Source of the DNA: Gammaproteobacteria bacterium
GTDB lineage: Bacteria; Pseudomonadota; Gammaproteobacteria; Ga0077554; Ga007554
NCBI GenBank assembly: GCA_021731145.1
Contig: JAKFXX010000007.1
Span: 72,108 to 136,107, forward strand
Length of the DNA: 64,000 nucleotides
Direction: 5' to 3'
The notes under the pieces are model-generated. The model was not told the origin of the DNA and made no database searches. It worked only from the letters and a program-made list of their open reading frames with translations. Positions within the stretch are counted from its first letter, which is position 1. Every line of letters starts with the position of its first letter. A program made the position numbers and the translations under genes. Positions 16,784 through 31,899 of the stretch are shown piece after piece.

Positions 16784-16831
16784 TGTAGGTCGGCCTTCAG
16801 GCCGACATATCCGGCTAAAGCCAGACCTACA
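16784..16831. repeat. REP-type element (tgtaggtcggccttcaggccgaca family)
   Basis: tgtaggtc...gacctaca termini with an internal ggccttcaggcc hairpin, located between the exbB-like gene and exbD. Confidence 0.6.
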
Positions 16832-16892
16832 TGGGGTTCGGATCATGTTTCGTAATTTATAATTTCATGTGCTAGGACTGGAGGATAAAACG

Positions 16893-17297: not shown

Positions 17298-17336
17298 GAG
17301 CGCTATGCCAGGCTCGATTTTGTTGGGATGTAACGT

Positions 17337-18032: not shown

Positions 18033-18037
18033 GTCGG

Positions 18038-18058
18038 CAGGTAATGCCGGATTACCTG
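18038..18058 (+). terminator. Small hairpin after tonB (weak terminator candidate)
   Basis: caggtaat / attacctg forms a perfect 8-bp stem with a 5-nt loop. No clean T-run follows. Confidence 0.3.
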
Positions 18059-18121
18059 ATGATTTTCATCCCTCTGGGGTGAGGATTGAGATGAAAAATT
18101 CACAGTGAGAAGAACCTGGAA

Positions 18122-19660
18122 ATGGCAATTAAGAAATTAGGTGTTACCGTCTTATCTCTCGCATTGTTCAATCCATCCGCGTGGGCTGGAGAAAAAGAAG
18201 ATCTTGAAAAACTGCGCGGAACTACCAAAGGACTGATTCAAATTCTGGTGGAGCAGGGCGCGATTACCAAGGAAAAGGCCGGGGAGTTAATACGCGAGAT
18301 CGAGAAATCTCCCACGGAAACGGAAACACCGGAAGAAGAAGTAGATAAGAAAACCGTGCGCGTGCCTTACGTGTCTGAAACGGTCAAGCAGGAAATGACG
18401 GAGCAGATCCGGATGGATGTGCTGGCACAAGCCAAGCGGGAACAGTGGGGCAAGCCCGGCGCAATCCCTGAGTGGGCACAGAAAATAAGGTGGGAAGGCG
18501 ATTTTCGCTTGCGTTCACAGAGCGATATGTTTCAGAGCGACAACTTTAACCTCCTGCCAAACTATCTGGAGATTAACCGGGTTGGCGGTCCGGCGAATAC
18601 GGATAATCCCTTTCTGAATACTACTAATGACCGGGAGCGTTTACGGTTGCGGGCAAGGCTGAGCATGCTCGCCGAAGTCACGCAAGGGGTCACGGCGGCA
18701 TTCCGTCTGGCCACCGGTAGTGCCAATGATCCTGTTTCGACCAACCAGACATTGGGCAATATGGGCAATCGTTTTAATTTTATGCTTGATCAAGCCTACA
18801 TCAAGCTGGAGCCTTATCAATGGTTGACGCTGGTGGGTGGCAAGATACCCAATCCCTGGTTTGGCACCGACCTGGTGTGGGACGAGGATCTTAACTTCGA
18901 TGGCGCCGCCGTGCAATTCAAACCGCGCATCGGCAACGAACTGGTATGGTTCTCAACGCTGGGTGCTTTTCCGTTGCAGGAAATCGAGCTGTCGAAAAAG
19001 GACAAATGGCTATACGGTGCGCAGACCGGTGTCGATTGGAATCGAAGCCAGTTCAGGGCGAGATTTGGCGTGGCTTATTATGACTACCAGAATATCACCG
19101 GGCAAAGAAAAGCGCCCAATGATCCTTCTCAGGATTTTACCGCGCCGCAGTTTATGCAGAAAGGTAATACCTTGTTTGATATTTCACAAACTCAAAACAG
19201 TGGCAGGTACGCGCTTGCATCTGAATACAAAGAATTGAACATAACCGCCAACCTCGATATATACACATTTTCCCCGGTACACATCACGCTGACAGGCGAT
19301 TATGTCAAGAATATTGGGTTTAAAAAAGAAGACATAGTGCAGCGTACCGGGAGAGATGTCGACCAGCAGAATCAGGCATATTTGGGCAGGGTTGCTGTCG
19401 GCATGCCGAGGATCAAGCATCGCCACGACTGGCAGGTGTTCGGTGGTTATAAACACCTGGAAAGCGACGCCGTATTGGATGCCTTCACAGATTCCGATTT
19501 CCATCTGGGGGGCACCAATGCCAAAGGCTGGATCGCGGGCGGTAGCTATGGTGTTGCCACCGATACCTGGCTGACACTGCGCTGGTTGAGCGCGGATCAG
19601 ATAGTTGGGCCGCCGCTTGCCATCGACGTTATGCAACTTGATTTGAACGTGAGATTTTGA
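18122..19660 (+). CDS. Putative porin-like outer-membrane beta-barrel with an N-terminal charged/coiled segment
   Basis: Signal peptide ...LFNPSAWA. About 90 aa of Glu/Lys-rich helix. Alternating beta-strand-like sequence follows. The terminal LDLNVRF carries an OMP-type C-terminal Phe. Confidence 0.65.
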   Translation: MAIKKLGVTVLSLALFNPSAWAGEKEDLEKLRGTTKGLIQILVEQGAITKEKAGELIREIEKSPTETETPEEEVDKKTVRVPYVSETVKQEMTEQIRMDVLAQAKREQWGKPGAIPEWAQKIRWEGDFRLRSQSDMFQSDNFNLLPNYLEINRVGGPANTDNPFLNTTNDRERLRLRARLSMLAEVTQGVTAAFRLATGSANDPVSTNQTLGNMGNRFNFMLDQAYIKLEPYQWLTLVGGKIPNPWFGTDLVWDEDLNFDGAAVQFKPRIGNELVWFSTLGAFPLQEIELSKKDKWLYGAQTGVDWNRSQFRARFGVAYYDYQNITGQRKAPNDPSQDFTAPQFMQKGNTLFDISQTQNSGRYALASEYKELNITANLDIYTFSPVHITLTGDYVKNIGFKKEDIVQRTGRDVDQQNQAYLGRVAVGMPRIKHRHDWQVFGGYKHLESDAVLDAFTDSDFHLGGTNAKGWIAGGSYGVATDTWLTLRWLSADQIVGPPLAIDVMQLDLNVRF

Positions 19661-19717
19661 CCTGTGTATTTTTTAGAGTCACGGAACACGGCCGGGACCA
19701 GACAGGAGGTGAATGTC

Positions 19718-20416
19718 ATGATCCGTCATAAAGGATGGCTTCTGCTTGTAATGTTCACTCTAGGGTTGGCCGGAAATGCCGCTGCGGATTCCGGTGACAA
19801 AAAAGAACGCGAGGCGCTAAGAAAAATGCGCCTCATGATACAGACGTTTGAACAGGAAAAATCGGCGCTGCAGCAGGAAAACAATAGCCTGAACGAGAAA
19901 GTGAAGGCACTGGGTAGCCAGGTCGGTGACATCAAAAGCGCTTCCACAGGCCAGATCAGGAAAAAAGATGCTCGTTTGGGCGAGGTTGAAAAGGAACTGG
20001 TTGCTGTCAAACAGGAAAATCAGTTTCTGGTAGCCAAGCTGCAAAGTACCCAGCAGAGTCTGGAAGAATTGACGCTGAAGCACAAGGAGGTTGTTCAGGC
20101 CGCGCAAAACAGTCTTCAGGACGGCGTCAAGCAAGGCGAGGAGTATAACAATAAGATAAAAGAGGCTGAAGTCAAAATTTCTCAGCAGTCTCAAGCTATT
20201 GACATGTGCGAGAAGAAGAATCTGGCGCTTTACAATCTCAATATGGAGATTCTGGAGAAATACAAGAGTAAGGGTGTTTGGGGATCATTTATTCAGGCTG
20301 AGCCCTTTACGCAAATAAAGCGCGTTGAAATTGAGAATACACTGCAAGAATATAAGGACAAGCTTGACAGCCAAAAAATGGAAAAATCTGGACCCGGCAC
20401 CGGCAAGGGAGGATAG
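19718..20416 (+). CDS. Secreted/periplasmic coiled-coil protein
   Basis: An aggagg RBS precedes ATG 19718. Signal peptide MIRHKGWLLLVMFTLGLAGNAAA. The remainder is heptad-like and rich in Glu/Lys/Gln/Leu. Confidence 0.7.
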   Translation: MIRHKGWLLLVMFTLGLAGNAAADSGDKKEREALRKMRLMIQTFEQEKSALQQENNSLNEKVKALGSQVGDIKSASTGQIRKKDARLGEVEKELVAVKQENQFLVAKLQSTQQSLEELTLKHKEVVQAAQNSLQDGVKQGEEYNNKIKEAEVKISQQSQAIDMCEKKNLALYNLNMEILEKYKSKGVWGSFIQAEPFTQIKRVEIENTLQEYKDKLDSQKMEKSGPGTGKGG

Positions 20417-20472
20417 GAAACGCTGGGGGTAAGTGGCATAATCCCTTGCCGCTACTCTAATAAAATGCATCC

Positions 20473-21162
20473 ATGAGTCCAATTTCACGCCCTGCCTTTA
20501 GCCGTATTTTCCCCTTTGCGATTTATATTGCCTTTTTGGCCATTGCCTCCGGCATGTCCACCTTGCAGGATATGGGCTATATCAAAGACTGGGATTTGCG
20601 CTGGCTCTATCCTGTCAAGGTGGGTTTGGTGTTGCTGGCGCTGCTAGGGTTATGGCGCCATTATTCTGAACTTTCCAGGCCAGCCAATGTAAAGGCGGGG
20701 GACTGGATCGTTGCCGGGATCACGGGTGTTGTGGTTTTTGTGATCTGGATTAACCTGGACCAGGCGTGGGCGACAATGGGCAGCGAGTCACGCGGCTTCA
20801 GTCCGGTATCAGAAGGGGGCGAAATTGACTGGATACTGGTGGCATTCCGTCTGATAGGCGCGGCTATGATAGTGCCTGTCATGGAGGAGTTGTTCTGGCG
20901 TTCGTTTGTGATGCGCTGGATAGATAACCCGGATTTTCTTCGCATCAATCCAGCTCAAATCAGCATTAAGTCGTTTGTTATAGCTTCGGTACTTTTTGGT
21001 ATCGAACACAATCTGTGGCTGGCGGGCATCATTGCCGGGATTGCCTATGGTTGGCTATACAAGCGCAGTGCCAATCTTTGGGTTCCTGTATTTTCACATG
21101 CCGTCACCAACGGCCTGCTTGGCATCTGGGTGATCTATTCCGGAAATTGGCAGTTCTGGTGA
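20473..21162 (+). CDS. CPBP (CAAX-type) intramembrane metalloprotease, resembling the PEP-CTERM-associated subfamily
   Basis: Multi-TM protein with the motifs EELFWRSF, FGIEH and HAVTN. Confidence 0.85.
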   Translation: MSPISRPAFSRIFPFAIYIAFLAIASGMSTLQDMGYIKDWDLRWLYPVKVGLVLLALLGLWRHYSELSRPANVKAGDWIVAGITGVVVFVIWINLDQAWATMGSESRGFSPVSEGGEIDWILVAFRLIGAAMIVPVMEELFWRSFVMRWIDNPDFLRINPAQISIKSFVIASVLFGIEHNLWLAGIIAGIAYGWLYKRSANLWVPVFSHAVTNGLLGIWVIYSGNWQFW

Positions 21163-21359
21163 AACATCCTTAGCAGTCCTTCCTCTCGGGAAAGCCGCGC
21201 CTTTTTACCCCCTCCTCCTTTGGCTGATAGCCCATAAATTATTCGGCCGCTGTACGTAATCAGATTGTCATATTGACGGACTATTATTGCCCCCAGGTTA
21301 CATAGCTTTTAACGCCAGCGCATCCTTAATAACCGGCACTGCATTCTACGGAGATTAAC

Positions 21360-22133
21360 TTGAGAAAAATATTGTGTCTCATGGCGTGCGCCATTCTTGC
21401 TGCGTGCTCGGTAAATCCGCCAGCACATACCGGCAATGAAGAAATTCTCAATAAACTTGGGGAAATGAGCAAGCAGATCACTACGCTGAGTGATGATGTC
21501 AGCGTGATCAAGAAAGCGTTGGCCGTTGCGATGGGCGGCGCACCTGAGCAGCCGAAACCACCCGTTATTACTACGATTGATCTCGATGACGCCTCCCCTG
21601 TGAGGGGTGATGAAAATGCCACGGTGGCAATTGTTGAGTTTTCAGATTACCAGTGCCCATTTTGCGGCCGCTTTCATGCGCAGGTTCTACCCAGCCTGAA
21701 GAAAGCATATATAGATGCCGGGAAAGTCCGGCATATTTTTCGTGATTTTCCGCTTGATTTTCACCCTCAAGCAAAGGATGCGAGCATTGCTGCGAACTGT
21801 GTTGGTGAGCAGAAGGCCTATTGGGAGATGCACGACAGTTTGTTTGCAAATCAAAATCGCCTTGGCGCCGCTTTATATGAAGAGCTTGCTAAAAAGATGA
21901 ATCTTGATATGGCCTCTTTTCAAGCATGCCTGAAGAATGCGAAGCAGGCGGAAAAAATTGAGAAAGACCTGTCTTATGGGCAAAGCCTTGGGATAGACGG
22001 AACCCCCAGCTTTTTCATTGGACGCATTGAAGGCAAGAAGCTTGTGGATGTTAAGCAGATAGTAGGCGCACAGCCCCCGGCAGTGTTTGCCCAGGCAATT
22101 GAGGCTGCCTTGGGGGGCGCGCCTAAAAATTGA
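21360..22133 (+). CDS. DsbA-family thiol:disulfide oxidoreductase lipoprotein
   Basis: Lipobox LAACS (TTG start 21360; alternative ATG 21381). Thioredoxin active site YQCPFCGRF. Confidence 0.85.
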   Translation: MRKILCLMACAILAACSVNPPAHTGNEEILNKLGEMSKQITTLSDDVSVIKKALAVAMGGAPEQPKPPVITTIDLDDASPVRGDENATVAIVEFSDYQCPFCGRFHAQVLPSLKKAYIDAGKVRHIFRDFPLDFHPQAKDASIAANCVGEQKAYWEMHDSLFANQNRLGAALYEELAKKMNLDMASFQACLKNAKQAEKIEKDLSYGQSLGIDGTPSFFIGRIEGKKLVDVKQIVGAQPPAVFAQAIEAALGGAPKN

Positions 22134-22185
22134 TGGCTGTTTTACTTACGAGATGAGTCCTCAGAGTAAGTGATATTTGATTTGT

Positions 22186-23382
22186 ATGCCCATTTACCAT
22201 TATAGCGCCTTGACAGAACGCGGCGTTTTGGCCGCAGGCGAGGGGGTTGCCACCTCGAGCGAAGCTTTACGCCAGGAATTGGTGGCGAAGGGTCTGCTGG
22301 TACAAGACATCCGTCAAAAAAACTCTGGATTGGGCTTGCGCCTAAAGCGCATCAAAGCGGAGGAATTTCTGCTGTTTAACCAGGAGTTTGTGGCACTCAT
22401 ACGCGCGGGTTTGACAATACCCGACGCCTTGAAAATAGCGGCGGATCGTCCTGATAGCCCGATGTTGGCCAGCCTCCTGCGGCACGTGAATGAAGAGGTG
22501 CATGGTGGTGCGTTACTTTCCGAAGCCTGCTCCAGGCACCCCGAGGTATTCGATGGTCTTTACGTCTCTGCGATAAAAACCGGCGAAAAGACCGGCGTGC
22601 TGGCGACGGTTCTGGAGAAATATCAAGCCTACCTCAAACGCCGGGTTGGTTTGCAGAAAACCATTTCACATGCGCTGACCTATCCGGTGTTTTTGTTGCT
22701 GGTGTTAGGCACGGTGCTGGGTGTGCTGTTTTTGTTTGTCATGCCGCGTTTTGTTGCGATGTATACCGATTTTGGCGCTGAACTGCCGCTACCCACACAA
22801 ATTCTCGTTACCTTGGTAAATAATTTGCCTTTTTATTTACCCGTGGTGTTATTGCTGGGCACGCTCGGATGGTTCGCCATCCAAGCCTGGGTAAAGACCG
22901 ATGCAGGGCGTCTGCGGGCAGATCATTTGAAGGGACGGCTGCCGATACTGGGGAAGGTCTATCAGGATATTGCCATCGTGCAACTGGTGCGGACGCTTGC
23001 CACCCTGCTCTCCGGTGGTACGCCCTTGGTCGAGGCCATGCGCATCACGCAGGATTCACTTACCAATCGCGCCAAGGCGCGTGCGTTGGCTCAGGCCGAA
23101 AACCTGGTGATGGGGGGGCAAAGCCTGGCGTCTGCCATGCGCAATACGCAACTCATGCCGGGAACGGCAATAAAGATGATTGAGGTGGGCGAGGCGTCGG
23201 GTGGGCTTGATGCCATGCTGGAGGAAATCGCCCAGTTCTATGAGGAAGTACTGACTAATAAACTTGCACGCATGACAGCATTGATTGAGCCTTTATTGAT
23301 GCTGATCATGGGCGTCATGATAGGCGGCACGATCATCGTGATGTATTTGCCGATCTTTCAGATTGCGGACATCGTCAAATGA
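22186..23382 (+). CDS. gspF: Type II secretion / type IV pilus platform protein (GspF/PilC family)
   Basis: About 400 aa with a duplicated T2SS-F architecture and three TM segments. Its stop overlaps the next start (ATGA). Confidence 0.9.
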   Translation: MPIYHYSALTERGVLAAGEGVATSSEALRQELVAKGLLVQDIRQKNSGLGLRLKRIKAEEFLLFNQEFVALIRAGLTIPDALKIAADRPDSPMLASLLRHVNEEVHGGALLSEACSRHPEVFDGLYVSAIKTGEKTGVLATVLEKYQAYLKRRVGLQKTISHALTYPVFLLLVLGTVLGVLFLFVMPRFVAMYTDFGAELPLPTQILVTLVNNLPFYLPVVLLLGTLGWFAIQAWVKTDAGRLRADHLKGRLPILGKVYQDIAIVQLVRTLATLLSGGTPLVEAMRITQDSLTNRAKARALAQAENLVMGGQSLASAMRNTQLMPGTAIKMIEVGEASGGLDAMLEEIAQFYEEVLTNKLARMTALIEPLLMLIMGVMIGGTIIVMYLPIFQIADIVK

Positions 23383-25097
23383 GCCATCCCTTCAGTTACC
23401 GGAGGTTAGGAGAAATCCTGCTGGGCAAGCAGTATGTCAGCCATCATCAGATAGATGCCGTCCTGACAGGCAAAAAGGGCCGGCTGGGCGAGGTGTTGCT
23501 TGATGAAGGCCGCATTACGCCAGCGCAGTTGGCCGAGGCTCTGGCAGAACAGTGCGGCTTACCCTATGTTGACCTGGAGGGATTTGTTATTTCGCCAGAG
23601 TTGTACAGCTTGATATCTGCAACGCACGCCTATCAGTATGGGGTTGTTCCCTACCAGAGAGACGGAGAAGTGTTGATCGTTGTTGTTTCTCCCCCCTGCG
23701 ATATTACTTTGGCCGACCGCCTGGAATGTTTGAGCGGTTTACAGGTGCGCCTATTTGCCAGCAGTCCACAAGCGATTGCAGCGGTGTTGAAGCGCAGCGA
23801 AGGGAATTCCGAGGTACTGAAAGGCGTCTCCGAGGATTTCAAGCTTGCCATCGTCAAGGAGAATGACGATGGCAAGGAGCAATACGTGTCATTGGATGCG
23901 GCCAATGAAGATGCCGCAAGCCCGGTTATAAAGCTCATTAACAGCATGCTGTCGGCGGCCATTCAAAAGCGTGTCAGTGACGTACATATAGAGACCTACG
24001 AAAAAGGCATCTCGGTCAATTACCGTATCGATGGTGTTTTATACCCCGCGACCGATACGCTCGACCGGCGCCATCAGAGCGCGTTGGTGTCGCGCCTCAA
24101 GGTGATGGCGGAGTTGGATATCGCCGAAAAAAGGGTACCCCAGGATGGACGATTCAAGTTGCGCTTTGGTTCGCGTGACATAGATTTCAGGGTATCCATC
24201 CTGCCCAGTGTGTTCGGTGAAGATGTGGTTATCCGGATTCTGGACAAATCATCCATCACCGATGGGATGAAGAATCTACGTCTGGAAAGCTTGGGAATGG
24301 CACCTGAAATCCTGAAAAAATTTCGCAAGAGTATCCATGAACCCTATGGCATGGTGCTGATTACCGGCCCCACGGGCAGTGGAAAAACGACCACGCTGTA
24401 TGCGGCGCTCAGCGAATTGAATACCGGTGATGAAAAGATCATTACCATCGAAGATCCGGTCGAATATCAATTGCACGGCATCGTGCAAATCGCGGTAAAC
24501 GAGAAAAAAAATCTTACCTTTGCCAAGGGGCTGCGTTCCATACTGCGGCATGATCCTGACAAGATCATGGTAGGTGAAATACGCGATGGAGAAACAGCGC
24601 AGATTGCCGTTCAATCGGCGCTGACGGGGCATCTGGTGTTCACAACGGTGCATGCTAATAGTGCTTTCGATGTGCTCGGGCGCTTCAGCCATATGGGAGT
24701 GGATACGTATAACTTTGTTTCGGCGCTCAATTGCGTCATGGCACAACGCCTGGTTCGAATCATTTGCCCGAAATGCAAGCGTCAAACCGCGGTTGATGAT
24801 GACATTCTGGAGCTGTCCGGGCTCGATCCTGCACAATATCAAGATCAAGCATGGTACGAAGGCGCCGGCTGTGATTACTGCCACGGCACGGGTTATCGCG
24901 GCCGTGCCGCCGTTACCGAGTTTCTCGCTTTGTCGCCATCCATCCGCCAGATGATCATAGAACGGCGTCCGATCAATGAGATGCAGGCGGCGGCGGTGCA
25001 GAATGGGATGGTCACATTACGTCAATCCGCACTGGCGCTGGTGCTTTCAGGCCAGGCGACGCTGAAAGAGATTAATCGTGTCACTTTCGTTGAATAA
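23379..25097 (+). CDS. gspE: Type II secretion / type IV pilus assembly ATPase (GspE/PilB family)
   Basis: N-terminal T2SS-E N-domain (LGEVLLDEGRITPAQLAEALAEQ). Walker A GPTGSGKTTT. Tetracysteine CPKC...CDYC. Confidence 0.95.
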   Translation: MSHPFSYRRLGEILLGKQYVSHHQIDAVLTGKKGRLGEVLLDEGRITPAQLAEALAEQCGLPYVDLEGFVISPELYSLISATHAYQYGVVPYQRDGEVLIVVVSPPCDITLADRLECLSGLQVRLFASSPQAIAAVLKRSEGNSEVLKGVSEDFKLAIVKENDDGKEQYVSLDAANEDAASPVIKLINSMLSAAIQKRVSDVHIETYEKGISVNYRIDGVLYPATDTLDRRHQSALVSRLKVMAELDIAEKRVPQDGRFKLRFGSRDIDFRVSILPSVFGEDVVIRILDKSSITDGMKNLRLESLGMAPEILKKFRKSIHEPYGMVLITGPTGSGKTTTLYAALSELNTGDEKIITIEDPVEYQLHGIVQIAVNEKKNLTFAKGLRSILRHDPDKIMVGEIRDGETAQIAVQSALTGHLVFTTVHANSAFDVLGRFSHMGVDTYNFVSALNCVMAQRLVRIICPKCKRQTAVDDDILELSGLDPAQYQDQAWYEGAGCDYCHGTGYRGRAAVTEFLALSPSIRQMIIERRPINEMQAAAVQNGMVTLRQSALALVLSGQATLKEINRVTFVE

Positions 25098-26034
25098 TCT
25101 GTTTGACAGTATTGCACCGCGCTCTAAAGCCGTTTTTGGAATCGGCATCGGCAGGGATCGTCTTTCTGCCGCGCATGTTGTTACTACAAAACAGGCGAGA
25201 CATATCGAACGGATCAGGCAGATAAATCTGCCTTTCACACTATTCAGTGGCACCCCTACGCCCGAGATAGGTCATGGGCTTTCATCCTTGTTGGGCGAGT
25301 TATGCGGTGAAGTCAAAAGGTCGCATATTCCCATTCAGATCGCATTGCCTGACCCGGTGGTGAGCTTGCGTGTCTTCGAGTTGGGTGCCATTCCTAAAAC
25401 CAGAAAAGAGCAACTGGCGCTTGTCCACTGGCGGTTCAACAAGGAGTTGAATTTGGGGGGGCGCGCCATTGAATGCAGTTGCCAGCCTTTGGGCGTGGAT
25501 AACGACAAACATCTCTTGTTGGCGATGGCTATCGATCAGGCTTGGTTGGATTGCCTGAAGGAGGCGTGCCGGGACGCGGGTGTGATCAGTACGGTCATCG
25601 ACATGGCGGCGTGTTATCGCTCTAACCGTTTTTACGAACGCTTCTCTTGCGATGGCGCCGATGTAGTTGTTATTTCATTGGATGACGACGCCTGGACAGT
25701 GTCCATTTCGGACGCGCAAGGCCGTTTACGCTTTGTCCGCTCGCGTTGGCGTGAAACCATGCCGGAGCGGGAGAGGGAATATCAGGAAATAGCCGCCGAG
25801 TCAGAAAAGATGGTGCGCCTCTATGCGCATGCCGCCCCTGGCCGGAGCATAAAAAACATACACGCAATAGGTGATGCCAAGGATGTCTCTGGGGTCGCGG
25901 ATTTATTGGATCAACGCATGGCGGGGAAATGTATCAGGGTGGCCGGAGGAGTCGAGTTTATATCTAAGCAAGGCGTGTCCGGAAATACTGTAGACAGTAT
26001 GGTGTCAACCCTGTCGGCAACGGTGTTGCGATGA
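25078..26034 (+). CDS. PilM/GspL-like cytoplasmic assembly protein (actin-like fold inferred)
   Basis: Position and size fit. N-terminus AVFGIGIGRDRLSAAHVV resembles the PilM phosphate-1 strand. GTG start overlaps the gspE end. Confidence 0.45.
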   Translation: MSLSLNNLFDSIAPRSKAVFGIGIGRDRLSAAHVVTTKQARHIERIRQINLPFTLFSGTPTPEIGHGLSSLLGELCGEVKRSHIPIQIALPDPVVSLRVFELGAIPKTRKEQLALVHWRFNKELNLGGRAIECSCQPLGVDNDKHLLLAMAIDQAWLDCLKEACRDAGVISTVIDMAACYRSNRFYERFSCDGADVVVISLDDDAWTVSISDAQGRLRFVRSRWRETMPEREREYQEIAAESEKMVRLYAHAAPGRSIKNIHAIGDAKDVSGVADLLDQRMAGKCIRVAGGVEFISKQGVSGNTVDSMVSTLSATVLR

Positions 26035-26573
26035 AAATCATAACGAATTTTTCGACGTCATCCGCTGGCATGGCGCCGCGGATCATGATGATATTGTGGG
26101 CAACGGCGTTGCTGGCCGCGCTGTTAGCCGCTGGGATGGCTATGCAAACATCCCAATTGAAACAGACGAAGCTGGACTTGGAGCGTCAATTGTCAAAACT
26201 CCAAAACAGGCACGTCGCTGGGATCCCGAAAGTATTTCCCCGTCATGAAGAGCTTGTCACGTTAAAGAAGCGCATAGACGCTGTTTCATCCATATCAAAT
26301 AGTGGGGAAGGGTCACTATCCGCGTTCCTGAGAAAAATAGAGCTGCTATTGCCTGACGAAGCCTATCTTGTGACACTTCACTACAAGGGAGATACCAGGG
26401 AGGCTCAGATTACGGCTGAGGCAGGCAGCGCAAAAATACTTACCGGTTTTTTGCGTGATCTTGAAAAAGAGAAAAGCTTCCTTGAAGTTTTGCTGACAAA
26501 ACAGTCGCAGCGCACATTGAACGATAAGCAGATTGTTCAGTTCGATCTGCGTATAAAGGAGCGTCTTTCATGA
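26031..26573 (+). CDS. PilN/GspL-C-like bitopic inner-membrane assembly protein
   Basis: Single TM IMMILWATALLAALLAAGMA followed by a coiled segment and a ferredoxin-like-sized periplasmic domain. 4-bp overlap with neighbours on both sides. Confidence 0.5.
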   Translation: MKIITNFSTSSAGMAPRIMMILWATALLAALLAAGMAMQTSQLKQTKLDLERQLSKLQNRHVAGIPKVFPRHEELVTLKKRIDAVSSISNSGEGSLSAFLRKIELLLPDEAYLVTLHYKGDTREAQITAEAGSAKILTGFLRDLEKEKSFLEVLLTKQSQRTLNDKQIVQFDLRIKERLS

Positions 26574-27139
26574 AGGCGACGCATCCTTTTGCGGAAAACA
26601 TATGGTATTCGCTACGCCATCCCCTGATCAAGGCGGGGATGGCGGCTAGCGGGGCCGCCATAACCCTGGCCATTGTAGTCTGTTTTGGATATTGGATGCC
26701 CGTGCGTAACGATATCAACAGCCTCTCTGAATCGGTTAATCTCGAACGTAAGCGGATTGTTGATGATACGCGTTCCGTGCAAATTTATAACGCATATTTG
26801 AGCGCTATAAAACAGCTTTCGGCCATTGATAAAAAAATTAACAGCCCTGCCGGTCATGCAGATCTTGTGAATAATATTGATAGTATCGCAATACAAAGAA
26901 AAGTAACGATTATTTCTGAATCCTACGATGAGGGTAAAGAAAGGAATGGTTACACGTCGCTGTATATGGAGTTGGCATTACAGGGAGACTATCAGGGGCT
27001 GAATGAATTTCTTGTTGATATTCGTGGCCTGCCAACCTGGACTGTTGTTGGGGAAGGGTCGATAAGCCGCTTGGCAGGACAGCAGGATTTGGTTAAGGCG
27101 CAATTGCGTTTAATAACTTATCACAAGACGGGAATATGA
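26570..27139 (+). CDS. PilO/GspM-like bitopic inner-membrane assembly protein
   Basis: Single TM AASGAAITLAIVVCFGYW, a coiled segment and a periplasmic domain. Translationally coupled to neighbours. Confidence 0.5.
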   Translation: MKATHPFAENIWYSLRHPLIKAGMAASGAAITLAIVVCFGYWMPVRNDINSLSESVNLERKRIVDDTRSVQIYNAYLSAIKQLSAIDKKINSPAGHADLVNNIDSIAIQRKVTIISESYDEGKERNGYTSLYMELALQGDYQGLNEFLVDIRGLPTWTVVGEGSISRLAGQQDLVKAQLRLITYHKTGI

Positions 27140-27768
27140 AAAGTTACAAGGAAGTAGCCATCAGACATCGCAATGCAATATTGCTGGTGATGGCTTTTGT
27201 CTTGATGGCCGCCAACGTATTGAATTGGGGCGCATGGGGTCAGGTCAATTCTCGGGAAGCGCCTGGAAGGGGATCAACGGCAGGGGGGTTCCAGGTTTCT
27301 GATTTTCAGATAAAAAATATGAATGTGCCTGAGGAGAAAGATAGCGCGATTGGCCGTGACTTGTTCTATCCTGTTTTTGAAGAATATTCAGAACCTGTTA
27401 AAGAAATAACATCCATTGCGGAGGATAATGAAAATATTAAACAAATAACTGATGCCGAGATACCTCCTCCCCTTCCGCAAAAAACTCCTGAACAACTTGA
27501 AGAGGAGATCGCACGGTCCGATGCCGCTAATTTTAAATATATTGGTACGATTTGGCGTGGAGGACAAGGCCAGGCGCTTTTGGTGAACACGGACAAGCGT
27601 TATTTCGTCTTTTCTGGAGACAAGGCAGGCAGCCGATTCGTTGTTGAAATGATAACGAACGACGCGGTCTCTCTAAGAGACCCTGTCACAAACGTGACGG
27701 CTCAAGTACTAATATCGGGAGGACCCGCATTAAAAGCGGCTCAAGAGACAAGTGACATTGAAAGATAG
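27136..27768 (+). CDS. PilP/GspC-HR-like protein
   Basis: N-terminal TM AILLVMAFVLMAANVL. C-terminal beta-sandwich-like FKYIGTIWRGGQGQALLVN...GDKAGSRFVVEMITNDAVSLRD. Lies immediately upstream of the secretin. Confidence 0.45.
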   Translation: MKSYKEVAIRHRNAILLVMAFVLMAANVLNWGAWGQVNSREAPGRGSTAGGFQVSDFQIKNMNVPEEKDSAIGRDLFYPVFEEYSEPVKEITSIAEDNENIKQITDAEIPPPLPQKTPEQLEEEIARSDAANFKYIGTIWRGGQGQALLVNTDKRYFVFSGDKAGSRFVVEMITNDAVSLRDPVTNVTAQVLISGGPALKAAQETSDIER

Positions 27769-27774
27769 CGTAAA

Positions 27775-30057
27775 ATGAAACCGATAAAAAAAATAATATG
27801 TTATTTCATGGTGGTAGTGTTGTGCCTGTTGGTTGCATCTTGTGCCGGTCCGATTCGAAAGGCGGAAAACTATGAGGATAAACAGGAATGGATAAATGCG
27901 GTAATTGAGTACCGAAAGGCCTATAACGATGAGCCAAGGAACGTGGAATATAAGTCACGTCTGAAGCATGCCGAATTCAAGGCGGCCGACTATTATTACC
28001 ATCAAGGTATGCTACTTTTGGAGCGGGAAAAAATCGATGAAGCCATAGTTCAACTCCAGCAGGGCTTGACTGCAATGCCCGGTGATGAGCGGCTAATGCA
28101 GGCGATGAACAAAGCGCTTTCAAAAAGAGAGGCCAACAATCTTTATCAAGAAGGAGTTCTGATAGAAGGCGCGGGCAATGCCGACGAAGCGAAGCGCATA
28201 TTCCAAAGGGCCGTAAATGTCTATCCTGATCACAAAGCGGCATCAGAGGCCCTTGCCAATCTTGAAAATAAAAAAATCAAGGAGCGTGATACCGAGAAAT
28301 TCTCGTTGACTTCAGCATCCCCCATTTCGCTGAATTTCCGTCAAGCCGATATGCGCTCAGTTTTTGAGTTCGTTGCCAAATCATTTGGCATAAATATCAT
28401 ATTTGATGAGGCCATCAAGACCATATCCCCCGTCACGGTATTTGCCAAGGATGTTTCCTTCGAGCAAGCTTTGGCCCTGATTAATGTGGCAACCAAAACC
28501 TTCTATAAGAAAATCAGCAAAAATACCATCATAATTGTGCCGGATTCAAAGGACAAGCGTGGTCAATATGAAGATCATATGATGCGTACCTTTTATTTGA
28601 GCACTGTCCGGGCCAAGGAGGCGGCGGATATCCTGAGAGGTGTGATGACAATAAGGAAAATGATCGTCAACGAACCGTTAAATACGCTGGTTGTCCGTGA
28701 TACCGAGGAAGTTATCAGGCAGGTGGAAAAGATTATTGATGTAAACGACAGAAAGCCCGCTGAAATAGTTCTGGAAGTTGAGATCCTGGAGATGAATCGC
28801 ACCAAGGCAGAGCGTCTTGGCCTTGATCTTGGGTCGTATCAAATCAGCGCTGCGGTTCCGTCAGCCATCGCCCTGAGTGGATCCATTAGCGGCGCGATTG
28901 AGAAGGCTTCGCTACTTACGCTTCCTTCGGCGACCTTCAGGTTTTTTAAGCAGGATGTAGATGCCAGGACGCTTGCCAATCCCAAGGTAAGGGTTGTGAA
29001 CGGAAAATCCGCAAAAATCCATATTGGCGACCGTGTGCCGTTACGTGTTTCCACGATCATCAATACGACGGGGCAGGTGAACACAACTTATGATTACAAA
29101 GACATTGGTATAAAGCTTAGCGTTGAACCAACCATAAATCTGGACAATTCATCATCAGTAAAGCTTGGTTTGGAAGTGAGCTCCCTGGGGGCTAATCTGG
29201 GAACGGCGACAGAGCCGGCATTCCTTATCGGTAGCCGAAATGCTGAAACTTTTATGCTGTTGCGTGATGGTGAAACAGCGATTCTGGGCGGTCTTATTCG
29301 TGATGAGGATCGCAAGACGGTAGTAAGGGTTCCATTACTGGGAGACATTCCTGCCGCAGGTTCTCTATTTAGTTCTTACGATATGTCGAAGGGGCGCACC
29401 GACGTGTTGTTGACCATCACGCCTCGTGTTGTGCGAGGCTGGGATCTGCCCGCCAAGGAAGTCCGCCAGTTTTATTCTGGCACCGAAGATAAATATCTTG
29501 ATCAAGCGCCCTTTCAGAGCCTCGCTTCTCCATCATCGGCTGCGGTAAAGGAGGATGCCGGGATTCAGGAGTCCCCGCAGGCACCTGTTAACGAAAGTCC
29601 GGCGGCACCCCCATTGCCAGGCCAGTCGATTGCGCCAGGTATTGGGGGGAATGTTATCCAGTCTCCCGCGCTCGGCTTTTCTAAGCCAGCTTATATGGTC
29701 ATCAATCAAGATGAGGTGGATGTTCAGATTCTTTTTGACAACCTCGCAAAAAACAGGGAGATCGCCACGGAAATACAATTCAATTCAAAGGTGCTGGAAT
29801 TTGTCGGGGGTGATGCGGGCGAATTCAAAGTTGGTTTTTTTCAGGCCGACAAAAATGAGGCAGGAGATGCTGTACGTCTAAGCGCCGGGCTTGCAAATGA
29901 TGCCGTCTCGAAAGAGAAAGGTATTCTGGCAACCCTCCGGTTCCGTGCCTTGAAGCCAGGTGTTTCTGCTCTCACGTATGGTGCCTCATCGGTCAAAAAT
30001 GCGGCGGGTGACATCATTAATCCACAGTCAAATATCTCACGTGTCATTGTACGCTAG
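27775..30057 (+). CDS. gspD: Secretin (GspD/PilQ family) lipoprotein with N-terminal TPR module and C-terminal cohesin-like domain
   Basis: Lipobox LLVASCAG. TPR-like repeats (YRKAYNDEPRN..., AKRIFQRAVNVYPDHKAA). N-domain ISLNFRQADMRSVFEFVAKSFGINIIFDE. Secretin core RVPLLGDIPAAGSLFS. Pro-rich linker. C-terminus EIQFNSKVLEFVGGDAGEF...GILATLRFRALKPGVSAL. Confidence 0.9.
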   Translation: MKPIKKIICYFMVVVLCLLVASCAGPIRKAENYEDKQEWINAVIEYRKAYNDEPRNVEYKSRLKHAEFKAADYYYHQGMLLLEREKIDEAIVQLQQGLTAMPGDERLMQAMNKALSKREANNLYQEGVLIEGAGNADEAKRIFQRAVNVYPDHKAASEALANLENKKIKERDTEKFSLTSASPISLNFRQADMRSVFEFVAKSFGINIIFDEAIKTISPVTVFAKDVSFEQALALINVATKTFYKKISKNTIIIVPDSKDKRGQYEDHMMRTFYLSTVRAKEAADILRGVMTIRKMIVNEPLNTLVVRDTEEVIRQVEKIIDVNDRKPAEIVLEVEILEMNRTKAERLGLDLGSYQISAAVPSAIALSGSISGAIEKASLLTLPSATFRFFKQDVDARTLANPKVRVVNGKSAKIHIGDRVPLRVSTIINTTGQVNTTYDYKDIGIKLSVEPTINLDNSSSVKLGLEVSSLGANLGTATEPAFLIGSRNAETFMLLRDGETAILGGLIRDEDRKTVVRVPLLGDIPAAGSLFSSYDMSKGRTDVLLTITPRVVRGWDLPAKEVRQFYSGTEDKYLDQAPFQSLASPSSAAVKEDAGIQESPQAPVNESPAAPPLPGQSIAPGIGGNVIQSPALGFSKPAYMVINQDEVDVQILFDNLAKNREIATEIQFNSKVLEFVGGDAGEFKVGFFQADKNEAGDAVRLSAGLANDAVSKEKGILATLRFRALKPGVSALTYGASSVKNAAGDIINPQSNISRVIVR

Positions 30058-30538
30058 GAAATACAAACTCCTGGGAGTCACCTTCGTCGAGTTGCTGGTG
30101 ACGCTGGTGATTCTTTCGATTCTCGCGGCGGTTGCATTGCCTTATGCAGAAATTACGGTGCGCCGCAATAAGGAGATTGAATTGCGCCAGGCACTGCGTG
30201 ATATGCGCAGTGCCATTGACCGTTTTCATCTGGACTGGGAAACGGCAAAAATATCGAAATTGGATAATGATGTTAGCGAAAATGGTTACCCAAAAAAATT
30301 GCAAGTATTGGTTGAAGGAGTGGGGTCTGCCCAGGCCAAAGGGACAAAGATTAAATACTTGCGCCGAATTCCTGCCGACCCGTTCTCCGGCCCTGACAAG
30401 CCGTCACTGGAGCACTGGGTGCTGCGCGGTTATCAGGATGCGTCCGATGCCACCTCGTGGGGAGGAACGGATGTTTACGATGTACGGTCATTAAGCCGTC
30501 GCAAGGCGATTGACGGCAGCTTCTACAAGGATTGGTGA
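30041..30538 (+). CDS. GspG-like pseudopilin 1
   Basis: Prepilin motif KLLG/VTFVELLVTLVILSILAAVALP with Glu at +5. GTG at 30041 gives a 12-aa leader; the ATG at 29960 would give an implausible 39-aa leader inside the secretin gene. GspG-like YPKKL...RRIPADPFSG. Confidence 0.7.
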   Translation: MSLYARKYKLLGVTFVELLVTLVILSILAAVALPYAEITVRRNKEIELRQALRDMRSAIDRFHLDWETAKISKLDNDVSENGYPKKLQVLVEGVGSAQAKGTKIKYLRRIPADPFSGPDKPSLEHWVLRGYQDASDATSWGGTDVYDVRSLSRRKAIDGSFYKDW

Positions 30539-30539
30539 C

Positions 30540-30917
30540 ATGCGCCGCAGTATTGTCCACAAGGCGCGCGGCTTTACCTTGGTGGAGCTGATGGTGGTGC
30601 TGGTTTTGATTGTTATACTTGCCAGTCTCGCAGCACCCTTGGTAACCAGCTCAATACAGCGCGGCCGTGAAGCTGTGCTCAAGGAAGATTTATTAGTGAT
30701 GCGTAAAGCAATTGATGATTACTATGCGGATACGGGAAATTATCCGGAGGATATCAAGCAACTGATGGAAAAACGTTATCTGAGGAAAATTCCTGTTGAT
30801 CCTTTAACTGAACGCAGTGATACGTGGCGTGAGGTTCGTGATGATGCGGGGATTGTTGATATAAAAAGTGGAGCGGATGGAAAATCCGCCAATGATGAGT
30901 CATACAGCGAATGGTAG
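30540..30917 (+). CDS. GspG-like pseudopilin 2
   Basis: Leader MRRSIVHKARG/FTLVELMVVLVLIVILASLAAP with Glu at +5. AIDDYYADTGNYPEDIKQL...RKIPVDPLT. Confidence 0.85.
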   Translation: MRRSIVHKARGFTLVELMVVLVLIVILASLAAPLVTSSIQRGREAVLKEDLLVMRKAIDDYYADTGNYPEDIKQLMEKRYLRKIPVDPLTERSDTWREVRDDAGIVDIKSGADGKSANDESYSEW

Positions 30918-30957
30918 TTTATTGTCTTAATCTTAATTTGATGTGAGAGGCTGGTCT

Positions 30958-31392
30958 ATGAAAAAGAGCATGAGATGGTCTTCGGGTTTTACCATGATGG
31001 AGTTGCTGATTGTTCTGGTTATTATCGGATTGTTAGCGGCTTTGGTGGGTCCTGCATTGTTCCAGCGCATCAATCCGGCAAAACAATCGGCGGCGCGCAG
31101 TCAGATTGAAAATTTCATGACAGCTCTCGACACCTATTTTGTAGATAACGGACACTTTCCAACGACACAACAGGGTTTTTTGGCGCTTCGTGTTAAACCG
31201 GAAGGTGATGAAAAGTGGGCGGGGCCTTATCTTAAAAAAGACGTGCCAAACGATCCATGGGGAAATCCATACCAATACCGCGCTCCTGGACACAATGGTG
31301 GCTACGATATTTTATCTCTGGGCGCGGATGGTAAAGAGGGTGGCGAAAATGAAAATATGGATATCAATAGCTGGGAGATCGACAAGAAATAA
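30958..31392 (+). CDS. gspG: Type II secretion major pseudopilin GspG
   Basis: A gagagg RBS precedes the start. MKKSMRWSSG/FTMMELLIVLVIIGLLAALVGP. Canonical GspG body ARSQIENFMTALDTYFVDNGHFPT...GPYLKK..PNDPWGNPYQYRAPGHNGGYDILSLGADGKEGG. Confidence 0.95.
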   Translation: MKKSMRWSSGFTMMELLIVLVIIGLLAALVGPALFQRINPAKQSAARSQIENFMTALDTYFVDNGHFPTTQQGFLALRVKPEGDEKWAGPYLKKDVPNDPWGNPYQYRAPGHNGGYDILSLGADGKEGGENENMDINSWEIDKK

Positions 31393-31897
31393 TCATGATG
31401 GATTTACCTATATCATGGTGCTGGTCGCGGTTGTAATAACCGGCCTGATGGCAGGTGTTGCAGCCACCATCGCATCGCGGGTTATGCAGGCCGAGAGAGA
31501 GAAGGAATTGCTTTTCCGTGGCATGGCTTATCAGAATGCGATAAAAAGCTATTATCAGGCTGGCGCGCAACTTAATACGTTTATCTTTCCGCGCTCGTTA
31601 AACGATTTGCTGAATGACCCGCGCTTTCCCGGCAAACATCATATTCGTGCTCTGTATGTGGACCCAATGGGGAAAGGACGGCGGGAGTGGCGCGTGATCC
31701 GTTCAATTGATGGCGGTATCGCCGGCGTTGTCAGCTCAAGCAAACAAAAATCTTTAAAGACCGCCAACTTCCCCGCTGGACTGGAATCTCTGGCGGGCAA
31801 GAAGTCCTATGCGGAATGGGTTTTTCAGTACAACGCTCCCGCAGCAATCCAAACTCCACGTTCCGTCATGCCACGTGTACCTGTGCAGCAGAAATAG
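31349..31897 (+). CDS. Atypical pseudopilin lacking Glu5
   Basis: Candidate leader MKIWISIAGRSTRNNHDG/FTYIMVLVAVVITGLMAGVAA has Met, not Glu, at +5. GspG-like AIKSYYQAG...LNDPRFPG. The start is uncertain and overlaps the gspG end. Confidence 0.6.
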   Translation: MKIWISIAGRSTRNNHDGFTYIMVLVAVVITGLMAGVAATIASRVMQAEREKELLFRGMAYQNAIKSYYQAGAQLNTFIFPRSLNDLLNDPRFPGKHHIRALYVDPMGKGRREWRVIRSIDGGIAGVVSSSKQKSLKTANFPAGLESLAGKKSYAEWVFQYNAPAAIQTPRSVMPRVPVQQK

Positions 31898-31899
31898 AT

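What the first reader, a model, noticed from the sequence alone, without database searches (positions are those of the whole stretch)
18122..31897. Apparent compositional mosaic inside the supercluster
**Seen by eye only, not computed.** tpsA (4.3-14.7 kb) is strongly GC-rich with GC-ending codons. By contrast, the porin-like and coiled-coil genes (18.1-20.4 kb) and much of the T2SS-like module (about 25-31.4 kb) contain long AT-rich runs, for example atgaaaccgataaaaaaaataatatgttatttcatgg at the secretin start.

**Inference.** The block may have been assembled from parts with different evolutionary histories, or the differences reflect amino-acid composition (Lys/Glu/Asn-rich against Gly/Ala-rich proteins).
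Basis: seen in the sequence. Interest (0 to 1): 0.3.

Follow-up and report, generated by a model that had tools for sequence, protein, structure and literature searches.

The report
AT-shifted accessory secretion-gene block beside topA
A 15-kb run of secretion genes really is much more AT-rich than the rest of this bacterial chromosome, mostly because it is an old, relocatable accessory gene block built from separate modules and only partly because of its protein composition, which is a common pattern in bacterial genomes.

Summary
Segmentation puts breakpoints at about 16.6 kb and 31.76 kb (GC 0.579 | 0.498 | 0.581; block-shuffle p<=5e-5). The right edge is the 2-bp gap between the last cassette gene and topA. 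Third-position GC falls in tiers: 0.66 (tpsB/tpsA/exbB/exbD), 0.58 (tonB to pilM-like), 0.49 (pilN to end), against 0.73 in core genes.

The same 11-gene T2SS/T4P-like cassette in three distant hosts matches its flanks, so the shift is lineage-specific and not intrinsic.

The block joins separately distributed modules: TpsA-ExbB(LamG)-ExbD-TonB-Porin_5-cc occurs without the cassette (L093), and the cassette occurs alone (L086, L090, L091). Four clade relatives that show DNA beyond the cassette, at 86-93% nucleotide identity, have four different right flanks. One of them keeps an internally deleted topA scar.

The block is old. Its synonymous divergence equals the core's, and polarised substitutions show it sitting at its own lower GC equilibrium and not ameliorating. 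There is no tRNA, integrase or flanking repeat. Verdict: an ordinary but well-documented accessory-island mosaic; ancient horizontal origin is inferred, not proven.

The parts
16630..31897 (+). AT-shifted compositional domain (GC 0.498, flanks 0.58)
   Evidence: Segmentation, block-shuffle null, per-gene residuals
2576..4186 (+). tpsB (POTRA_2 + ShlB); near-core composition (GC3 0.70)
   Evidence: Pfam; composition
4347..14711 (+). tpsA, 3454 aa (ESPR, TPS, DUF3739); GC 0.592, GC3 0.659; Gly/Ala-rich (GARP 0.34)
   Evidence: Pfam; composition
14899..16743 (+). ExbB/TolQ-type channel with N-terminal DUF2341 + LamG; GC 0.544, GC3 0.63 (upper tier)
16869..17297 (+). exbD; GC3 0.67 but low GC12 (0.43)
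17337..18032 (+). TonB_2-type protein; first gene of the GC3 0.58 tier (GC3 breakpoint at 17,426)
18122..19660 (+). Porin_5 outer-membrane protein (E = 8e-175)
19664..20416 (+).
20473..21162 (+). CPBP/CAAX intramembrane protease, TIGR03008 pepcterm_CAAX (241 bits, cutoff 81); deleted with different end points in L088 and L089
21360..22133 (+). DsbA-like thioredoxin; also precedes the cassette in outgroup L092
22177..23382 (+). GspF/PilC-type platform protein; first gene of the conserved 11-gene cassette
23379..25097 (+). GspE/PilB-type ATPase with MshEN (c-di-GMP-type) N-domain
25078..27768 (+). Four assembly-platform genes: 318-aa unknown (PilM/GspL position), PilN-like, PilO-like, 210-aa unknown (PilP position). 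The lowest GC3 tier (0.49) starts at about 26,230
27775..30057 (+). Secretin with N-terminal TPR region; GC 0.481, GC3 0.50
29960..31897 (+). Two prepilin-type (N_methyl) proteins, a GspG-type major pseudopilin (30,943-31,392) and a last unknown ORF ending with TAG at 31,895-31,897. These are maximal ORF extents; relatives call shorter starts
31898..31899 (.). Right boundary: a 2-bp spacer between convergent stop codons. Homology to L081, L084 and L089 ends at 31,897-31,899 and to L088 at 31,917
31900..34236 (-). topA, first gene of the conserved core block topA-smg-dprA-lysM / def-fmt-rsmB...; GC3 0.745. An internally deleted copy sits beside the cassette in L088

Best explanation
The stretch from about 16.6 to 31.9 kb is a genuine AT-shifted domain. 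It belongs to an accessory secretion-gene block that lies against the conserved topA core block.

The block is a composite of separately distributed modules. Module 1 is TpsA with an ExbB(DUF2341/LamG)-ExbD-TonB energizer, a Porin_5 protein and a 250-aa protein of unknown family. Module 2 is DsbA plus an 11-gene T2SS/type-IV-filament-like cassette with a TPR-secretin. A dispensable CPBP protease sits between them.

Shown: the composite existed before the species of this clade diverged, it has since been inherited as one unit, and its right-hand junction has been rearranged repeatedly. In one relative it carries a topA scar, which is best read as the block having been moved or transferred together with its topA neighbour.

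About one third of its GC deficit relative to core genes comes from Lys/Asn/Ile/Phe-richer proteins. About two thirds comes from AT-ending synonymous codons.

The deficit is not a fading donor signature. Third positions in the block sit at their own lower equilibrium, because AT-to-GC changes fix less often there than in core genes.

Inferred, not shown: the block entered an ancestor of the clade from a lower-GC gene pool. It stays AT-rich because the GC-favouring force acting on core genes (codon selection or biased gene conversion) is weak on this accessory, probably poorly expressed and faster-evolving block.
For: Reality and boundaries.

Not amino-acid composition alone: with each gene's amino acids fixed and core codon usage applied, 17 of the 18 genes from 14.9 to 31.9 kb are 0.035-0.107 below expected GC, z = -5 to -13 (exbD -0.021, z = -1.6). 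The decomposition is 31%/69% for the cassette and 43%/57% for exbB..dsbA. Codon-usage distance B to the core is graded: 0.16-0.31 (tpsA), 0.28-0.42 (tonB..pilM) and 0.44-0.58 (pilN..end), against 0.14-0.21 core-to-core.

Not intrinsic to the genes: the orthologous cassette matches its flanks in L086 (GC 0.592 vs 0.600; GC3 0.750 vs 0.738), L090 (0.530 vs 0.538; 0.581 vs 0.571) and L091 (0.583 vs 0.590; 0.665 vs 0.730). It is 0.11-0.13 GC and 0.17-0.20 GC3 below flanks in clade members L081, L084 and L088, and 0.057/0.118 below in the 68% outgroup L092.

Modularity: the cassette stands alone in L086, L090 and L091. TpsA-ExbB-ExbD-TonB-porin-cc occurs without the cassette, next to T6SS genes, in L093. 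DsbA plus cassette occur in L092. The CAAX gene is deleted with different end points in L088 and L089.

Synteny break: the core order ntrY..def / lysM-dprA-smg-topA is conserved in many of 80 genomes, and none has this block after topA.

Different right flanks in close relatives: topA (window), T1RH fragment + iclR-xfp (L081), h124-VIT1-TerC-hrpA (L084), topA scar + h124 inverted + DUF3240 + S8 peptidase (L088).

topA scar in L088: the last ~9 codons fused to codons 7-48 (blastn 115 nt, 88.7%, E = 1e-37; tblastn E = 2e-13).

Age: four-fold-site divergence between window and L081 is 0.242 for the block and 0.222 for the core. Identity to L094 is a flat 85-95% from tpsA to pilN.

Own equilibrium: on the window and L081 branches, position-3 AT-to-GC rate per AT site is 0.18 in the block and 0.28 in the core; GC-to-AT is 0.17 in both. 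Implied GC3* is 0.49-0.52 against a current ~0.53-0.545 in the block, and 0.62 in the core (Fisher p = 1e-11). The five-taxon singleton count shows no AT-to-GC excess (632 vs 891).

Not an assembly artefact: four further assemblies (L081, L084, L088, L094) show the low-GC block in continuity with higher-GC DNA: right flanks in L081, L084 and L088, tpsA in L094.
Against: There are no classical island hallmarks: no tRNA, no integrase or transposase among the tightly packed ORFs, and no flanking direct repeats.

GC-normalised signatures differ only modestly from the core: delta* 85 vs 64, permutation p = 0.024, and tetranucleotide z-score correlation 0.52-0.64 vs 0.63-0.71.

No donor lineage was identified.

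The absence of an amelioration signal fits equally well with a native block under weak codon selection.

The core control for the substitution test is small (4.9 kb, three genes) and uses a more distant outgroup (78% identity) than the block test. The expected mis-polarisation bias, however, works against the reported contrast.

The comparison genomes are MAGs or metagenome contigs, and host taxonomy and expression are unknown.
Confidence: 0.72

Rival explanations
1. Native genes, no foreign origin. The block has always belonged to this lineage and is AT-richer only because it is weakly expressed and rarely recombined. Selection or biased gene conversion toward GC-ending codons is therefore weak, and mutation bias pulls both codons and amino acids toward AT.
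For: The block sits at its own lower GC3 equilibrium with a reduced AT-to-GC fixation rate. Synonymous divergence equals the core's. There are no mobility genes, tRNA or repeats. GC-normalised signatures are close to the core. Proteins evolve about twice as fast as core proteins.
Against: The same cassette shows no offset in three other hosts of similar GC. The boundary coincides exactly with a deep synteny break. Right flanks differ in each of the four clade relatives where flank DNA was available, and a topA scar shows relocation or transfer. Modules are distributed separately. The GC3 gap of about 0.2-0.24 is large for an expression effect (my own judgement).
Confidence: 0.2
2. Amino-acid composition alone. 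Lys/Glu/Asn-rich membrane and secreted proteins versus a Gly/Ala-rich TpsA, with no difference in synonymous usage.
For: GARP/FYMINK fractions differ: tpsA 0.34/0.20, block 0.26-0.27/0.25-0.27, core 0.31/0.20. This accounts for 50-68% of the tpsA-to-block contrast. In L093 tpsA and the exb-porin genes differ by 0.066 GC with nearly equal GC3.
Against: Residuals after the amino-acid correction are z = -5 to -13 for 17 of 18 genes. GC3 is 0.49-0.58 against 0.73. Orthologous proteins in other hosts are not AT-shifted.
Confidence: 0.03
3. A recent horizontal acquisition by this genome that is now ameliorating toward host composition.
For: Strong GC and GC3 offset with a sharp right boundary at a synteny break.
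Against: The block is present with the same offset in at least five clade assemblies at 86-93% nucleotide identity. K4 equals the core's. There is no AT-to-GC excess.
Confidence: 0.04
4. Assembly or binning chimera joining DNA of two organisms.
For: The window may come from a metagenome-derived assembly. This was not established; the window's exact secretin sequence is simply not on record in the collection.
Against: The low-GC block adjoins higher-GC DNA in independent assemblies from NCBI, JGI, ENA and Logan. The tpsA-to-cassette continuity is reproduced in L094.
Confidence: 0.01

Closest known systems
Genomic islands and the AT-richer accessory genome (the Lawrence-Ochman amelioration framework; core versus accessory GC differences described across bacteria).
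   Same: A contiguous block of secretion and adhesion genes with lower GC, lower GC3 and atypical codon usage. It ends exactly at a core synteny boundary, sits in variable contexts among close relatives, and has gene remnants at its junctions.
   Different: No tRNA, integrase or direct repeats. The block is old and co-diverging with the core. There is no amelioration signal; it sits at a lower equilibrium of its own.
Type II secretion systems and the type IV filament superfamily (T2SS, T4aP, MSHA)
   Same: GspF, a GspE with MshEN domain, PilN- and PilO-like proteins, a secretin, prepilin-type proteins and a GspG-type major pseudopilin in one operon.
   Different: No GspC, GspL or GspM families were detected. 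The secretin carries an N-terminal TPR region. The four proteins scanned against NCBIfam (secretin, ATPase, one prepilin-type protein and the unknown 318-aa protein) score below every equivalog cutoff or get no hit. The gene order F-E-M?-N-O-P?-D-pp-pp-G-x is conserved across many uncultured Gammaproteobacteria and Betaproteobacteria. No characterised member was found in the papers searched.
Two-partner secretion (TpsB/TpsA, FHA-like)
   Same: TpsB with POTRA_2/ShlB, and TpsA with ESPR, TPS and DUF3739 domains.
   Different: It is linked, here and in L093, to an ExbB(DUF2341+LamG)-ExbD-TonB_2 set, a Porin_5 protein and a ~220-250-aa protein of unknown family. PMC12505986 lists DUF2341-bearing ExbB homologues as uncharacterised.
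C-terminal sorting systems that use a T2SS (MYXO-CTERM/myxosortase; PMC11980579)
   Same: A CPBP-family intramembrane protease (TIGR03008, the PEP-CTERM-associated type) lies next to a T2SS-like cassette. A PEP-CTERM protein is encoded at 12-602. L092's cassette abuts EPS export genes.
   Different: No exosortase is present in the window. The CAAX gene is dispensable in relatives. Cassette neighbours in L086, L090 and L091 show no PEP-CTERM motif. The functional link is untested.

Membership tests
Classical integrative genomic island | Atypical base composition and codon usage relative to the host | tested here: met
Classical integrative genomic island | Insertion next to a tRNA or tmRNA gene | tested here: not met
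   ARAGORN finds no tRNA in the 64 kb
Classical integrative genomic island | Integrase, transposase or other mobility gene inside or at the edge | tested here: not met
   All large ORFs from 14.9 to 31.9 kb were scanned and none is a mobility gene (three have no family hit); intergenic gaps are at most about 200 bp
Classical integrative genomic island | Flanking direct repeats (att-like) | tested here: not met
   No repeat pair brackets the block
Classical integrative genomic island | Different genomic context or absence in related genomes; boundary at a synteny break | tested here: met
Canonical T2SS (Gsp) | GspD secretin, GspE ATPase, GspF platform and GspG major pseudopilin | tested here: met
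   Pfam Secretin, T2SSE, T2SSF and T2SSG. The NCBIfam equivalog cutoffs are not reached: gspD 163 vs 351, gspE 540 vs 630
Canonical T2SS (Gsp) | GspC, GspL and GspM assembly platform | tested here: not met
   No such families were hit. PilN and PilO (the latter just below the Pfam cutoff) are found instead, and two proteins have no match
Canonical T2SS (Gsp) | Minor pseudopilins GspH, I, J and K | tested here: inconclusive
   Two N_methyl proteins and one unknown ORF; no specific family assignment
MSHA-type pilus | MshE-type ATPase with MshEN domain, and an MshL secretin | tested here: inconclusive
   MshEN is present (58 bits). MshL scores 82.8 against a cutoff of 250
Two-partner secretion | TpsB Omp85-type transporter with POTRA domains, adjacent to an exoprotein carrying an N-terminal TPS domain | tested here: met
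PEP-CTERM-associated CAAX/CPBP protease (TIGR03008) | Score above the NCBIfam equivalog cutoff | tested here: met
   241 bits against a cutoff of 81
PEP-CTERM/exosortase system | An exosortase (EpsH/XrtA) gene in the locus | tested here: not met
   No gene scanned in the block (2.6-31.9 kb) is an exosortase; the window's core genes were not all scanned. The only related item is a PEP-CTERM-tagged protein at 12-602

The most novel reading that the evidence does not exclude
The low GC of this block is actively maintained and is not a relic. On this reading, a bacterial chromosome keeps a stable compositional domain (GC3 equilibrium about 0.50 against at least 0.62 in the core) over a functionally integrated, laterally relocatable secretion supercluster. 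The cause would be selection for AT-richness, for example regulation by a xenogeneic silencer, or exclusion from biased gene conversion. In the supercluster, a TonB-type energizer with a LamG-bearing ExbB, a dedicated porin and a TPR-secretin T2SS-like machine would together serve a giant TpsA adhesin and/or PEP-CTERM-type surface proteins.
Probability: 0.12. Interest if true: 0.6.

Novelty: new member of a known kind. Interest (0 to 1): 0.28.

Why it matters
For annotation, it marks 16.6-31.9 kb, and more loosely the whole 2.6-31.9 kb supercluster, as accessory DNA with its own history. Its codon usage should therefore not be used to model the host. The block's presence next to topA is a lineage-specific accident and not conserved synteny.

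It also shows that the supercluster is a composite of two portable modules. That guides any functional hypothesis: the T2SS-like cassette works without TpsA or Exb in other hosts, and the TpsA-Exb-porin unit works without the cassette.

The one mildly unusual result is that an old AT-shifted block shows no amelioration. This is relevant to the debate on why accessory genes stay AT-rich, but it rests on a small control.

Tried and rejected
- Exact look-up of the window's secretin: not on record.
- TopA scans of species-representative genomes and of metagenomes: no clade-level relatives (best 72% and 76%). So there was no empty-site comparison and no multi-genome core control.
- tRNA search: none.
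- Repeat search for att-like flanks: only chance-level short matches, plus a 9-nt tandem repeat inside topA.
- L033 (Methylococcus) has gspE/F/G after topA, but at 34-51% identity and in E-F-G order, so it is not this cassette.
- PEP-CTERM or other sorting tags in cassette neighbours of L086, L090 and L091: none found.
- PADLOC on the unknown cassette proteins: nothing.
- The five-taxon singleton test read alone suggested AT-ward drift. I rejected that reading after the core control showed an even stronger GC-to-AT excess.
- The last look-up (P0242) was meant to hit L089's genome but returned a different clade genome (L175). It was used as an outgroup only.
- No structure prediction was run on the unknown cassette proteins, because it does not bear on the compositional question.

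Full report
WHAT IS THERE. The window carries a 29-kb run of co-oriented secretion genes:
- tpsB (2,576-4,186) and a 3,454-aa tpsA (4,347-14,711; ESPR, TPS, DUF3739).
- A CPBP/CAAX protease that passes the TIGR03008 (PEP-CTERM-associated) cutoff, and a DsbA-like thioredoxin.
- An 11-gene T2SS/type-IV-filament-like cassette (22,177-31,897): GspF, GspE with an MshEN domain, an unknown 318-aa protein, PilN-like, PilO-like, an unknown 210-aa protein, a TPR-secretin, two prepilin-type proteins, a GspG-type pseudopilin and a last unknown ORF.

The last stop codon (31,895-31,897) is 2 bp from the stop of convergent topA (31,900-34,236, minus strand). topA opens the core block topA-smg-dprA-lysM / def-fmt-rsmB-DUF4390-ntrYX-trkAH-nrd.

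CHECK OF THE OBSERVATION. The GC drop is real and large.
- One-kb GC is 0.45-0.53 between 16 and 32 kb and 0.54-0.65 elsewhere, apart from a short second dip at 51-53 kb.
- Entropic segmentation finds two breakpoints, 16,630 and 31,760, giving GC 0.579 | 0.498 | 0.581.
- The lowest 15-kb mean (0.500, starting at 16,501) lies about ten standard deviations below block-shuffled expectation (0.545 +/- 0.005; 0 of 20,000 shuffles).
- The right coordinate of the finding is exact. The left edge is about 1.5 kb further left than stated.

I held each gene's amino-acid sequence fixed and drew codons from core usage.
- Seventeen of the 18 genes from 14.9 to 31.9 kb then have 0.035-0.107 less GC than expected, z = -5 to -13; exbD is the exception at -0.021, z = -1.6. 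The Mann-Whitney test against core genes gives p = 2e-7.
- Third-position GC falls in tiers: 0.661 (start to exbD), 0.580 (tonB to about 26.2 kb), 0.490 (pilN to 31,897), then 0.729 in the core.
- Karlin's codon-usage distance to the core is graded in the same way: tpsA 0.16-0.31, tonB..pilM 0.28-0.42, pilN..end 0.44-0.58, against 0.14-0.21 among core thirds. The shift runs from C/G-ending to T/A-ending codons, and ATA rises from 0.11 to 0.28 of Ile codons.
- Aggregated, amino-acid composition explains 31% of the cassette's 0.099 GC gap to the core and 43% of the 0.084 gap for exbB..dsbA.
- It explains 68% and 50% of the contrast between Gly/Ala-rich TpsA and those two sets.
- GC-normalised signatures differ only modestly: dinucleotide delta* core-to-block 85 against core-to-core 64 (exact permutation p = 0.024), with tpsA indistinguishable from the core. 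Tetranucleotide z-score correlations are 0.52-0.64 against 0.63-0.71.

IS THE SHIFT INTRINSIC TO THESE GENES? No.
- The TPR-secretin has over 1,200 relatives, and the 11-gene cassette is conserved in order in every context examined.
- In three distant hosts (52-57% secretin identity) the cassette has the composition of its flanks. L086: GC 0.592 vs 0.600 and GC3 0.750 vs 0.738. L090: 0.530 vs 0.538 and 0.581 vs 0.571. L091: 0.583 vs 0.590 and 0.665 vs 0.730.
- In the window's own clade (secretin 87-93% identical) it is 0.11-0.13 GC and 0.17-0.20 GC3 below flanks in every assembly (L081, L084, L088).
- In the nearest outgroup, L092 (68%), the offset is about half as large.
- The shift is therefore lineage-specific. 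Its reproduction in independent assemblies also excludes a chimeric assembly.

MOSAIC STRUCTURE. The supercluster is built of parts that occur separately.
- In L086, L090 and L091 the cassette stands alone between unrelated housekeeping or other genes.
- In L092 it is preceded by a DsbA-like gene and followed by EPS export genes.
- In L093 a TpsA-ExbB(LamG)-ExbD-TonB-Porin_5-cc unit occurs without CAAX, DsbA or the cassette, next to T6SS genes.
- Inside the clade the full arrangement is conserved (L094) and diverges evenly, at 85-95% identity per kb from tpsA to pilN.
- The CAAX gene has been deleted with different end points in L088 (window 20,537-21,202 missing, so 64 nt of the ORF remain) and in L089 (20,434-21,170 missing).

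BOUNDARY AND MOBILITY.
- The core order from ntrY to topA is conserved in many of 80 gammaproteobacterial and betaproteobacterial genomes, but none has this block beyond topA.
- Homology between the window and four clade relatives stops at 31,897-31,917.
- Beyond that point each relative differs. L081 has a restriction-enzyme fragment and then iclR-xfp, which lie 20.8 kb further on in the window (91.8% nucleotide identity). L084 has a 124-aa gene, VIT1, TerC and hrpA. L088 has the same 124-aa gene inverted, then DUF3240 and an S8 peptidase.
- Most telling, L088 carries an internally deleted topA immediately after the cassette stop. Its last ~9 codons are fused to codons 7-48 (115 nt, 88.7% identical to window 34,104-34,218, E = 1e-37; tblastn E = 2e-13), with no further synteny.
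- topA is generally essential (my own knowledge), so that genome presumably has an intact copy elsewhere. The simplest reading is that the block was relocated or transferred together with its topA neighbour and the redundant copy decayed. This is inference from one contig.
- There is no tRNA, integrase or bracketing repeat, so this is not a classical integrative island.

AGE AND DIRECTION OF CHANGE.
- Between the window and L081, four-fold-site divergence is 0.242 in the block and 0.222 in the core (p4 0.206 +/- 0.011 against 0.192 +/- 0.011). Block proteins differ twice as much, 8.9% against 4.5%. The block was therefore present before these species split.
- Polarising substitutions on the window and L081 branches gives a position-3 GC-to-AT rate of 0.17 per site in both compartments.
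- The AT-to-GC rate is 0.18 in the block and 0.28 in the core. The implied equilibrium GC3 is 0.49-0.52 in the block (current ~0.53-0.545) and 0.62 in the core. Totals are 400:443 against 66:205, Fisher p = 1e-11.
- The block is thus not ameliorating; it sits near a lower equilibrium of its own.
- Caveats: the core sample is 4.9 kb, and its outgroup (L175, 78% identity) is more distant. The expected mis-polarisation bias would understate the core's AT-to-GC rate, so it works against the contrast found.

INTERPRETATION. The best-supported account is an old accessory block, assembled from portable modules. It is compositionally distinct mainly through synonymous usage and secondarily through amino-acid content, has an unstable right junction, and is held at low GC by a weaker GC-favouring force than acts on core genes. 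An ancient horizontal origin from a lower-GC gene pool is the likeliest source of the offset. That rests on the lineage-specific shift, the synteny break, the variable contexts and the topA scar, but it is inferred and no donor was found. The main rival is a native block under weak codon selection. It explains the equilibrium result and the absence of mobility genes, but not the lack of any offset in other hosts or the relocation evidence.

COMPARISON WITH WHAT IS KNOWN AND SCORE. AT-rich accessory islands at core synteny breaks are commonplace (my own knowledge: the amelioration literature and core-versus-accessory GC surveys). The gene content is less ordinary. ExbB homologues carrying DUF2341 are explicitly listed as uncharacterised (PMC12505986). 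I found no described member of this TPR-secretin cassette. CPBP-type sortases working with a T2SS have precedent only in the MYXO-CTERM system (PMC11980579). These functional points lie outside the compositional finding and remain untested. As a compositional observation the finding is correct, well bounded and largely explained, so interest is low to moderate.

Noticed in passing
window 50,900-52,700: A second low-GC islet (GC 0.44-0.47, GC3 0.45-0.52). It holds only the N-terminal ~150 aa of an AAA_15 ATPase (AriA/PtuA/GajA-like) and a convergent HTH-HATPase-DUF4325 protein. It sits just left of iclR, where L081 instead has a type I restriction-enzyme fragment and L175 has carbonic anhydrase and FKBP genes. 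It looks like a decayed defence islet at another variable junction.
   Followed up: partly
window 31,911-31,955 (topA 3' end, minus strand): A 9-nt tandem repeat, CCGCCTCTC x4, encodes a (GEA)n tail at the extreme C-terminus of TopA (...PYEAGEAGEAGEAGEAAES*). The topA scar in L088 has a single unit.
   Followed up: partly
window 4,347-20,416; L093 1-15,460: TpsA (DUF3739) is followed by ExbB(DUF2341+LamG)-ExbD-TonB_2-Porin_5 and a ~220-250-aa protein of unknown family, as a conserved unit both here and in L093 (exbB 76% identical). This suggests a TonB-type energizer and a dedicated porin coupled to a two-partner-secretion adhesin. No characterised example was found (PMC12505986 lists DUF2341-ExbB as uncharacterised).
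   Followed up: partly
window 20,473-21,162; L088 ~3,400; L089 ~3,395: The TIGR03008 (PEP-CTERM-associated) CPBP protease gene has been deleted with different end points in L088 and L089. L088 keeps 64 nt of its 5' end. L081's contig begins only 161 nt upstream of the same break point as L089.
   Followed up: yes
window 12-602; L092 11,181-15,437: A PEP-CTERM-tagged protein is encoded at the window's left edge. In L092 the cassette lies directly upstream of an EpsD-like PPIase and Wza, Wzz and BcsQ-like EPS export genes. Together with the CPBP protease this hints at a link between the cassette and PEP-CTERM/EPS systems. Cassette neighbours in L086, L090 and L091 carry no such tag.
   Followed up: partly
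L090 16,608-22,337; L091 15,277-22,382: In two distant hosts the cassette is followed by very large secreted-type proteins: a beta-helix/TIG protein of 1,220 aa plus a protein of more than 2,000 aa, and an RHS/PKD protein of more than 2,000 aa. This parallels the giant TpsA near the cassette here, so these may be cargo.
   Followed up: no
L084 14,139-14,513 (-) and L088 14,333-14,707 (+): A 124-aa gene with no family assignment lies just past the cassette in both relatives. It is 82% identical at the nucleotide level but in opposite orientation. It is absent from the window.
   Followed up: partly
L033 14,500-17,900: A Methylococcus MAG has gspE-gspF-gspG (34-51% identical to the window's proteins, in a different order) downstream of topA. 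This is probably an unrelated T2SS locus at the same synteny break.
   Followed up: no
window 59,300-63,519: GC3 drops to 0.655 over the last core genes. The signal-peptide protein at 62,911-63,519 has GC3 0.58 and a residual of z = -4.6, so 'core' composition is not fully uniform.
   Followed up: no
window 16,738-16,872: The exbB-exbD intergenic spacer (~130 bp) is the only stretch between tpsA and pilN that does not align with L094.
   Followed up: no
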